This document shows positions 27,592 to 29,575 of a stretch of DNA of 64,000 nt, piece after piece. The notes below the pieces were generated by a model, which had not been told where the DNA came from, did no database searches, and saw only the letters and a list, made by a program, of their open reading frames with translations. Each line of letters opens with the position of its first letter. Position 1 is the stretch's first letter. The DNA is taken from assembly GCF_009914755.1 (NCBI RefSeq), contig NC_060926.1; one strand, given 5' to 3'. A program made the position numbers and the translations under genes. This DNA is from the human T2T-CHM13v2.0 reference genome, Homo sapiens.

Positions 27592-28049
27592 GCGGAGTTT
27601 CCAGATAGCTGAACACACAGAGATTCCTGGAGGGTGGTGCACCCAGGGAAGGCACAGACACTCCACGTCCCATCCCCCATATGCATTTTTTTCTTTTTTT
27701 TTTTTTGAGACAGAGTTTCACTCTTATTGCCTAGGCTGGAGTACAATGGCATGATCTTGGTTCACTGCAACCTCCACCTCTCAGGTTCAAGTCATTCTCT
27801 TGCTTTAATCTCTCAAGTAGTTGGGACTACAGGCGCACACCACCGCGCCCGGCTCATTTTTGTATTTTCTGTATAGATGGGGTTTCACCATGTTGGCCAG
27901 GCTAGTCTTGAACCCCTGACCTCAGGTGATCCACCCACCTTGGCCTCCCAAATTGCTGGGATTACAGGTGTCAGCCACTGGGCCTGGCCCCCCATATACA
28001 TTTCTTCATATGTATCCTTTATAATATTGTTTATAATAAACTGGTAAAT
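27592..28049 (+). mobile_element. MER21A-like LTR fragment, interrupted by an Alu at about 27690-27989, abutting the NPL retrocopy
   Basis: Resembles recalled MER21 consensus: ttccagatagctgaacac…ttcctggagggtggtgcacccagggaaggca…tgtatcctttataatatt…ataataaactggtaaat. Confidence 0.75.
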
Positions 28050-29575
28050 GTTGGATCAGGTAGTGATTCATATAGGAGTACTGAGCTTGAAAGAATCATG
28101 AGAACTGGCCCAACATGCCAAAGAAATAGAAGCCAATAGCATTGCTGTCCCTGCCCCTTTCTTTTCAAACCATGAAACAAAGATGCTCTGATTAATTTTC
28201 TAATAGAGGCAGCTGCTGCTACCCCTGCATTTTATTACTATCACATTCCTGCCTTGACAGGGGTGAAGATTTGTGCTGAGAAGCTGTTTGATGAGATTCA
28301 GCATAAGAGCCCCACTTACTTTTTTTTTCTTTTCTTTTTTTTTTTTTTTTTGTGGAGACAGAGTCTGGCTCTCGCCCAGGCTGGAGTGCAGTGGCACCAT
28401 CATGGCTCACTGTGACCTCTGCCTCCTGGGCTCAAGCAATCTTCCCACCTCAGCCTCAAGAGTAGCTGGGACTACAGGCATGTGCCTCCACACCCAGACA
28501 AAATTTTGTATTTTTTGAGGGGATGGGGTTTCACCATGTTGCCCAGGCTGGTCTTGAACTCCTGAGCTCAAGTGATCTGCCTGCCTTGGCCCCCAAATTG
28601 CTGGGATTACAGGTGTGAGCCAGTGTGGCCGGCCAAGAGCCCCACTTTCTAAAGGCTGAAATTCAGTGACACAGATCTTAGACTTCAGGCAATGTGTTGA
28701 TCAGAATCGCCAGCAATAGTTGACCTTCCTTTTGAGGGTGGATGAGCAACTGTTGAGTGCTCTGGTGATGGGAGCAACTGGAGCAGTGGGCAGATTTATA
28801 TCGACAGATTTATAAACTTTTTAGTCAAACTAGGTTTTCTAGTGTCACAGATCAAAGCCATCATGACTCTGGTCCCTGCAGTGGAAGTGGGCCCACCCCA
28901 TCTTCCGCTGCAGAAAGGCTCTAGGGAGTTTACTGATAGTGCTGAAGCCAAACTAAAAAGCTTGGATTTTTTTCTTTCACTGGCTTAAAAGATGGAAACT
29001 TGGAAGCCTATAGCCAGTGCCTGTCTATCCAATCAGGCTGTGTGCATTAAGACATAGTCTGCCCTAAATAGTGCATTCTTTTCTCAGGGACTTTTTAGAA
29101 AAACTTGAACTGAACTCTCTCCTAGCAAATGAAATCTCACTTCAATCAACAGATATTTAAGTACTTACTATGAGCCTTAAAAAGGTTTATTTTAGGCCGG
29201 GCATGGTGGCTCATGCCTGTAATCCTAACACTTTGGGAGGCTGCTTTTGGGAGCTGGAATTAATCAATTACAGTTATCTTGATTTCTAGTTCTTAATCTG
29301 ATTTTAAAGTTTTCTACTGGACGTAGTGGTGCACGCCTGTGGTCCCAGCTACTTGAGTGGCTGAGGTGGGAAGAACAGTTGAGCCCAGGAGCTTGAGGCT
29401 GCAAGTGAGCTATGATTATACCATTGCACTCCAGCCTGGGTGACAGTGTGAGACCCAGTCTCTCAAAAAAGAAAGTTTTCTAATTTTAAACCACTATAAT
29501 GTACAATACTTTTTTTGGTGGTGGTGGTGGGGGAATGTAATTTCATTTTAATAAATATCCATTTGGTATCTAGGT
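28050..29575 (+). pseudogene. NPLP1: NPL (N-acetylneuraminate pyruvate lyase) processed pseudogene, lacking the 5' exons, Alu-interrupted
   Basis: Manual translation gives [22 protein letters not shown]…[13 protein letters not shown]…LKFSDTD…[17 protein letters not shown]…[16 protein letters not shown], with stops and frameshifts and no introns. Alu at about 28320-28634. AATAAA at 29550-29555; 3' end approximate. Confidence 0.9.

What the first reader, a model, noticed from the sequence alone, without database searches (positions are those of the whole stretch)
27592..28060. NPL retrocopy appears to preserve an LTR-promoted chimeric mRNA (MER21A first exon spliced to an internal NPL exon)
Seen: a MER21A-like fragment starts abruptly mid-LTR and ends …ataataaactggtaaat, joined with no spacer to g-ttg-gat-cag (NPL …K|LDQV), and no upstream NPL coding sequence is present. 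Recalled: the MER21 consensus continues GTAAG at this point (a 5' splice site), NPL has an exon boundary inside codon K77 (AA|G CTG GAT CAG), and MER21A LTRs serve as alternative promoters (e.g. placental CYP19A1). Inference: the retrotransposed RNA was an LTR-driven, N-terminally truncated NPL isoform expressed in germ line or early embryo.
Basis: partly seen in the sequence, partly recalled or inferred. Interest (0 to 1): 0.8.

Follow-up and report, generated by a model that had tools for sequence, protein, structure and literature searches.

The report
Pseudogene fossil of LTR-started NPL transcript
The human NPL pseudogene on chromosome 2 begins with a short piece of a retroviral LTR joined exactly to an internal NPL exon, which is best read as a DNA copy of an ancient messenger RNA that started in an LTR and was spliced into NPL, although no such LTR sits upstream of that exon in today's NPL gene.

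Summary
A 142-nt LTR piece (27593-27688 + 28004-28049, split by a later Alu) abuts NPL sequence at 28050 with no spacer.

All three boundaries fall on RNA-processing landmarks.
- **5' end:** 24-27 nt downstream of a TATA-like ATAAA in 22 of 44 other genomic copies. Four other loci start at the same point.
- **3' end:** where 15 of 51 copies continue with GT (6 GTRAG, 11 more NTAAG).
- **NPL start:** the first base of an exon in the parent gene (ttttgcag|GCTGGATCAG), one mismatch at base 2.

The LTR family's upstream and downstream parts are absent from the whole 64-kb window, and the 5' flank is single-copy. That excludes insertion into a resident LTR.

The retrocopy joins seven NPL exons without introns and skips an 85-nt exon, so the source RNA was an aberrant, frameshifted isoform. 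It runs to about 31472, well past the annotated 29203.

Against the reading: the only family copy in 100 kb of the human NPL locus is antisense and downstream of that exon, and no sense copy lies within 71 kb upstream. The retrocopy's poly(A) and target-site duplication are lost.

Verdict: a retrocopy of an LTR-initiated, spliced NPL chimera (about 0.7). It is a neat example of a known kind, of moderate interest.

The parts
27260..27273 (+). Last 14 nt of the single-copy 5' flank, which is also the first copy of the target-site duplication of the later Alu
   Evidence: AAAAGGGTAGTAGG occurs exactly at 27260 and 27579. The region 26760-27273 is single-copy in the genome.
27274..27592 (+). Later sense Alu insertion (27274-27578) plus the second copy of its target-site duplication (27579-27592). 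Not part of the original retrocopy.
27593..27688 (+). LTR piece, first part. It starts at the presumed LTR transcription start (R-like region).
   Evidence: 80-86% identity to 39 other scored genomic places. 22 of 44 copies have ATAAA 24-27 nt upstream of the aligned start, and four other loci begin at the same point.
27689..28003 (-). Later antisense Alu (27689-27989) plus the second copy of its target-site duplication (27990-28003)
   Evidence: The duplication is ccccatatgcattt at 27675-27688 and ccccatatacattt at 27990-28003.
28004..28049 (+). LTR piece, second part. It carries AATAAA at 28035-28040 and ends at the junction ...ctggtaaat.
   Evidence: Up to 93% identity to other copies. Other copies continue past this point for about 350 nt, 15 of 51 with GT.
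28050..28107 (+). NPL exon A (parent C1:182171320-182171377, 58 nt), starting at the exon's first base
   Evidence: The parent acceptor is ttttgcag|GCTGGATCAG. The window reads gtTGGATCAG, with one mismatch at base 2.
28108..28315 (+). NPL exons B and C and the first part of D, joined without introns
   Evidence: parent C1:182173947-4022, 182175878-5970, 182177705-....
28316..28634 (-). Later antisense Alu inserted in exon D
   Evidence: The flanking repeat is AGAGCCCCACTT.
28635..29192 (+). Rest of exon D, exon E (28747-28793), exon F (28794-28833) and the start of the last exon (28834-29192). The 85-nt exon between E and F is absent.
29274..31472 (+). Remains of the NPL 3' UTR, broken up by Alus and a roughly 1.2-kb insertion. 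Homology blocks are 29274-29316, 29475-29500, 29542-29745, 30980-31138 and 31439-31472.
   Evidence: No homology was found after 31472.

Best explanation
NPLP1 is a processed pseudogene made, presumably by LINE-1 machinery, from a non-canonical NPL transcript. The roughly 140-nt LTR first exon was spliced from a GT donor lying 9 nt past the LTR's AATAAA to the normal acceptor of the NPL exon that starts in codon K77. The RNA then ran through the remaining NPL exons, skipping one 85-nt exon, into the long 3' UTR.

That RNA was reverse-transcribed and inserted in a single-copy site on chromosome 2 in the germ line. It has since decayed (82% identity to the parent) and taken up several Alus.

Shown: the three boundary coincidences, intron loss, exon skipping, and the absence of the rest of the LTR. 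Inferred: the LTR promoter and donor use, LINE-1 as the machinery, and the place of the source LTR, which is not upstream of the exon in today's human NPL locus.
For: 1. **Junction.** The LTR piece ends at ...aaactggtaaat (28049). NPL begins at 28050 with the first base of parent exon C1:182171320-377, which is preceded by ttttgcag.
2. **Donor.** In 51 distinct genomic copies the family continues past that point for about 350 nt. 15 copies continue with GT (6 GTRAG) and 11 with NTAAG.
3. **5' start.** The piece starts at 27593, 24-27 nt downstream of ATAAA in 22 of 44 alignable copies. Loci L011, L018, L034 and L061 start at the same point.
4. **No resident LTR.** The family's downstream 360 nt gave only one 22-nt chance hit in the 64-kb window (44 queries). 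Its upstream 300 nt gave no family match (38 queries). The 5' flank is single-copy.
5. **Processed RNA.** Exons A-B-C-D-E-F-last are joined at canonical AG/GT-bounded exon ends, and an 85-nt exon is precisely missing.
6. **LTRs as promoters.** MER21A is reported as a placental promoter of CYP19A1 (passages of PMC4419796). LTRs supplying promoter and first exon in oocytes are described in PMC5538554 (abstract and passages).
Against: 1. In C1:182100001-182200000, which spans 71 kb upstream of the exon to past the 3' end, the only family member is antisense. It lies at 182176533-182177103, downstream of exons A-C. 42 of 50 family queries hit it, so the search had power. The window piece matches it at only 65%.
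2. Bases 28050-28051 (gt) could equally be the LTR's own GT. The junction would then sit 2 nt off both splice sites.
3. Only 6 of 51 present-day copies have an intact GTRAG at the point.
4. The retrocopy's poly(A) tail and target-site duplication could not be found. A single insertion event for LTR piece plus NPL is therefore inferred, not shown.
5. No transcript data or other species could be examined.
Confidence: 0.7

Rival explanations
1. Template switching during reverse transcription. The enzyme copied NPL mRNA from its 3' end, jumped onto an unrelated LTR-initiated RNA and ran to that RNA's 5' cap, giving a bipartite chimeric retrocopy without any LTR-to-NPL splicing.
For: It explains the start of the LTR piece at the presumed transcription start. 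It also explains why no sense LTR is found upstream in the NPL locus. The g at 28050 is shared by both partners, which would be a 1-nt microhomology. Such bipartite chimeras are known for small RNAs fused to truncated retrocopies (recalled, not read here). Microsimilarity-dependent switches are described in the abstract of PMC5131818.
Against: The switch would have had to leave NPL mRNA within 0-2 nt of an exon's first base and enter the LTR RNA within 0-2 nt of a GT donor position. My rough estimate is about 1-2% each, so about 1 in 10,000 jointly. This is an inference, not a computed test.
Confidence: 0.13
2. A 5'-truncated NPL retrocopy inserted into, or next to, an LTR already resident on chromosome 2. 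Later deletions removed the rest of the LTR.
For: 5' truncation is common in LINE-1-mediated copies (established knowledge). The region has been heavily reworked by Alus, and the 3' end of the retrocopy is lost.
Against: Neither the upstream nor the downstream part of the LTR is anywhere in the 64 kb. The 5' flank is single-copy. The model needs two deletions ending exactly at the transcription start and at the donor, plus a truncation exactly at an exon start.
Confidence: 0.07
3. LTR-retrotransposon-mediated retroposition: NPL mRNA was co-packaged with the retroelement RNA, and the chimera was integrated by integrase.
For: The abstract of PMC5131818 reports retrocopies flanked by discontinuous LTR retrotransposon sequence, with microsimilarity at the fusion points, in mammals too.
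Against: Integration needs complete LTR ends. Here only a 142-nt internal piece of the LTR is present on one side, and no family sequence lies on the other side within the window. The 3' end of the retrocopy is lost, so that side is not fully testable.
Confidence: 0.03

Closest known systems
Processed pseudogenes as fossils of alternative transcripts (Shemesh et al. 2006, PNAS; seen only as an entry in the reference list of PMC4772013; content recalled)
   Same: A retrocopy records a splice form of the parent gene. Here the form has an alternative first exon and a skipped 85-nt exon.
   Different: The alternative first exon is LTR-derived, and its source is not present upstream in today's parent locus.
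LTR-derived alternative promoters with an LTR first exon, for example MER21A at CYP19A1 (passages of PMC4419796) and ERVL/MaLR LTRs in oocytes (PMC5538554, abstract and passages)
   Same: The LTR supplies the start site, the first exon and a splice donor joined to a host acceptor.
   Different: Those cases are seen as RNA from an LTR that is still in place. Here only a DNA copy of the RNA survives. PMC5538554 describes LTRs driving pseudogenes that are already integrated ('pseudogene recycling'), not pseudogenes copied from LTR-initiated RNA.
LTR-mediated retroposition (PMC5131818, abstract)
   Same: A retrocopy is fused to LTR sequence.
   Different: That kind has retroelement sequence on both sides and fusion points set by microsimilarity. 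Here there is one 142-nt piece bounded by a start site and a splice donor, joined at an exon boundary.

Membership tests
Processed pseudogene (LINE-1-type retrocopy) | Parent gene elsewhere, with exons joined exactly and introns absent | tested here: met
   Seven exons of C1:182171320-182188236 are joined at AG/GT-bounded ends. Identity is 679 of 826 aligned columns.
Processed pseudogene (LINE-1-type retrocopy) | 3' poly(A) tail and flanking target-site duplication | tested here: inconclusive
   Homology to the parent 3' UTR stops at 31472, next to a rearranged Alu. No A-tail or convincing repeat of the 5' flank was found. The best match was a 12-mer at 33999 with no A-run before it, equal to the 95th percentile of shuffles.
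LTR-initiated chimeric transcript (LTR promoter plus first exon spliced to a host exon) | The LTR part begins at the LTR's own transcription start | tested here: met
   The start at 27593 lies 24-27 nt downstream of ATAAA in 22 of 44 copies, and four other loci begin at the same point. The start site itself is inferred from the TATA-like box, not measured.
LTR-initiated chimeric transcript (LTR promoter plus first exon spliced to a host exon) | The LTR part ends at a GT donor, and the host part starts at an exon's first base after an AG acceptor | tested here: met
   15 of 51 copies have GT at the point (6 GTRAG). The parent reads ttttgcag|GCTGG. A 2-nt ambiguity remains at 28050-28051.
LTR-initiated chimeric transcript (LTR promoter plus first exon spliced to a host exon) | A sense-oriented source LTR upstream of the acceptor exon in the parent locus | tested here: not met
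   None was found in the 71 kb upstream of the exon in the human genome. The only copy in 100 kb is antisense and downstream. Farther upstream and other species could not be searched.
LTR-initiated chimeric transcript (LTR promoter plus first exon spliced to a host exon) | RNA evidence for the junction (CAGE, long reads) | not testable with these tools
   No transcript data are available. No paper holds both MER21A and NPL.
MER21A LTR family | Match to the curated family model (Dfam or Repbase) | not testable with these tools
No repeat library is on hand. The piece belongs to a family with hundreds of genomic matches that has a TATA-like box and AATAAA.
LTR-mediated retroposition | Retrocopy flanked on both sides by LTR-retrotransposon sequence, including complete LTR ends | tested here: not met
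   No upstream or downstream LTR part exists anywhere in the window. The 5' flank is single-copy.

The most novel reading that the evidence does not exclude
NPLP1 is the only surviving record of an LTR insertion that once acted as a germ-line promoter for NPL and was later deleted, or never fixed. In that case retrocopies can preserve regulatory alleles, as well as splice forms, that have vanished from the parent locus.
Probability: 0.35. Interest if true: 0.55.

Novelty: new member of a known kind. Interest (0 to 1): 0.42.

Why it matters
Retrocopies must arise in the germ line or early embryo, so each one is a dated sample of what was transcribed there. This copy appears to record an LTR acting as promoter, first exon and splice donor for a host gene tens of millions of years ago.

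The promoter is no longer visible upstream in the human parent locus. If comparative genomes confirm this, such chimeric retrocopies could be mined systematically to recover ancient, now-lost LTR promoter activity.

It also corrects the annotation. NPLP1 extends about 2.3 kb beyond its annotated 3' end and 142 nt (plus one Alu) beyond its 5' end.

Tried and rejected
- **LTR continuing upstream of the first Alu.** A MAFFT alignment (made with a mis-sliced join of window pieces) suggested similarity of 27200-27262 to the family's upstream part. A Smith-Waterman test then gave scores no better than shuffles: observed maximum 14.5 against a shuffle maximum of 18.5. A genome search showed the flank is single-copy. 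Rejected.
- **Rest of the LTR downstream of the retrocopy.** Not found (one search was swamped by Alu and L1 matches and was redone).
- **Target-site duplication.** Pattern and local-alignment searches gave only the Alu's own duplication and chance-level hits.
- **Locating the upstream NPL exons with Pfam PF00701.** Only exon-sized hits on contig 10 (two) and contig 3 (one) were found; none fell in the NPL locus.
- **More sequence upstream of NPL.** 30 kb was obtained.
- **Shemesh 2006.** Not held.
- **Literature.** The search for NPLP1 returned 128 papers, and all 20 listed concern the insect neuropeptide gene. MER21A with NPL returned 0 papers. Searches for retrocopies of LTR-driven chimeric transcripts found no description of this case. 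The passages I read do not describe retrocopies copied from LTR-initiated RNA. Supplementary tables were not examined.

Full report
**What is there**

The window is human chr2, and the parent NPL gene lies on contig C1 near 182.15-182.19 Mb.

Reading 27000-29700 and comparing it with about 70 kb, later 100 kb, of the parent locus gives this order:
- single-copy flank up to 27273;
- a sense Alu at 27274-27578, with a perfect 14-nt target-site duplication at 27260-27273 and 27579-27592;
- LTR piece, part 1, at 27593-27688;
- an antisense Alu at 27689-27989, with a 14-nt duplication at 27675-27688 and 27990-28003;
- LTR piece, part 2, at 28004-28049, carrying AATAAA at 28035-28040;
- NPL sequence from 28050.

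**The NPL part**

The window matches parent exons that I call A to G.
- A: C1:182171320-377
- B: 182173947-4022
- C: 182175878-5970
- D: 182177705-853, split in the window by an Alu at 28316-28634
- E: 182177977-8023
- F: 182184945-984
- G, the last exon: from 182187888

Each parent exon is bounded by AG and GT, and all are joined in the window without introns. Identity is 679 of 826 aligned columns, or 82.2%.

An 85-nt parent exon between E and F (C1:182181279-363, found) is missing exactly at its boundaries. The copied RNA was therefore an exon-skipped, frameshifted form.

The 3' UTR continues far beyond the annotated end of NPLP1 (29203). Homology blocks reach 31472 and are interrupted by Alus and a roughly 1.2-kb insertion. 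After 31472 no homology is found, and a rearranged Alu follows. No poly(A) tail or target-site duplication could be recovered.

**The junction**

The parent reads ...ttttgcag|GCTGGATCAGG. The window reads ...ctggtaaat|gtTGGATCAGG.

Homology therefore reaches the exon's first base with one mismatch at the second base. Read the other way, it starts at the third base if 'gt' is assigned to the LTR.

The exon encodes (K)LDQVIIHVGAL, which matches residues 95-114 of the human NPL structure chain 6arh_A.

**The LTR piece**

Both halves belong to one repeat family: 372 and 153 first-look candidates, 40 scored in each search, and several loci hold both halves adjacent to each other.

In 51 distinct loci the family continues for about 350 nt past the point where the window's piece ends. 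At that point:
- 15 of 51 copies have GT (3 GTAAGT, 3 other GTRAG, 9 other);
- 11 have the same word with a non-G first base;
- 25 have something else.

Upstream, most copies continue for 60 to about 300 nt beyond the point where the window's piece starts.
- In 22 of 44 alignable copies an ATAAA lies 24-27 nt upstream of that point. This is the spacing of a TATA box from a start site.
- Four other loci (L011, L018, L034, L061) begin within about 2 nt of the same point.

The piece therefore looks like the transcribed leader of the LTR, from the start site to a donor 9 nt past the polyadenylation hexamer.

**No resident LTR**

- The family's downstream 360 nt gave only one 22-nt chance hit in the whole window (44 queries).
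- Its upstream 450 nt matched only the 142-nt piece, with nothing for the part upstream of the start point (38 queries).
- The 514 nt 5' of the piece are single-copy in the genome.
- An apparent similarity of that flank to the family in a MAFFT alignment did not exceed shuffled controls.

**The missing source**

In C1:182100001-182200000 the only family member lies at 182176533-182177103. It is antisense to NPL and sits in the intron after exon C, that is, downstream of the junction exon.

42 of 50 family queries found it, so the method would have seen a typical sense copy. The window's own piece matches it at only 65% over 84 nt and matches nothing else.

Sequence farther upstream could not be fetched, and no other eukaryotic genome is available here.

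**Explanation**

Three independent boundaries fall on RNA landmarks: the start site, a GT donor position and an exon's first base. The rest of the LTR is absent on both sides.

I estimate the chance that a random truncation lands within 2 nt of an exon start at roughly 1-2%. That assumes about a dozen exon starts in at least 2.3 kb of mRNA; the exon number is recalled. The chance that the LTR breakpoint falls at a strong donor position is similar. These are rough inferences, not computed tests.

The best reading (0.7) is a retrocopy of an LTR-initiated, spliced NPL chimera.

Template switching by the reverse transcriptase onto an LTR-initiated RNA would equally explain the start-site boundary and the missing source LTR, but not the double splice-site coincidence (0.13). 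Insertion into a resident LTR followed by deletions (0.07) and LTR-mediated retroposition (0.03; abstract of PMC5131818) fit the flanks poorly.

**Comparison with the known**

- LTRs that give promoter, first exon and donor to host genes are well documented. MER21A at CYP19A1 appears in passages of PMC4419796. ERVL/MaLR LTRs in oocytes appear in the abstract and passages of PMC5538554.
- Retrocopies as fossils of splice variants are also known. Shemesh et al. 2006 was seen only in a reference list, and its content is recalled.
- I found no paper that names this case. MER21A with NPL returned 0 papers. All 20 listed hits for NPLP1 concern an insect gene.
- None of the passages read describes retrocopies copied from LTR-initiated RNA. 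Supplements were not read.

I file this as a new member of a known kind.

**Dating**

82% identity to the parent, and 80-93% identity to other LTR copies, point to an old event, around or before the early primate radiation. I could not date it better without other genomes. PMC4419796 lists MER21A as primate-specific. If the name is right, that bounds the age.

Noticed in passing
window 28747-28793: The copy of NPL exon E is identical to the parent at 47 of 47 bases. The other exons are 77.6-84.6% identical. At 82% identity a run like this has a chance of about 1 in 10,000. The cause is unexplained; it may be chance, low mutability or a small conversion tract.
   Followed up: partly
window 28794 (E/F join); parent C1:182181279-182181363: The retrocopy lacks an 85-nt NPL exon exactly at its boundaries, which shifts the reading frame. 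The source RNA was an exon-skipped isoform.
   Followed up: yes
window 29204-31472: NPLP1 is annotated as 28052-29203, but homology to the NPL 3' UTR continues in blocks to 31472. The blocks are split by Alus and by a roughly 1.2-kb insertion at 29746-30979, which is flanked by a 14-nt duplication of parent bases 182188646-659.
   Followed up: partly
loci L011 (C1:91.77 Mb), L018 (C1:199.17 Mb), L034 (C4:180.45 Mb), L061 (C1:153.22 Mb): Four other copies of the LTR family begin within about 2 nt of the same point as the window's piece, with unrelated and often A-rich sequence upstream. They may also be RNA-derived copies that start at the LTR's transcription start.
   Followed up: no
parent locus C1:182176533-182177103: An antisense copy of the same LTR family sits in the NPL intron between exons C and D. 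It is not the source of the window's piece: identity is 65% and the orientation is wrong.
   Followed up: yes
window 27260-27592: The second-strand cut of the later Alu insertion fell exactly at the 5' boundary of the LTR piece, so the Alu's 14-nt target-site duplication ends where the retrocopy begins. The duplication starts at a TT|AAAA site and could also have been the retrocopy's own target site. This was not resolvable.
   Followed up: partly
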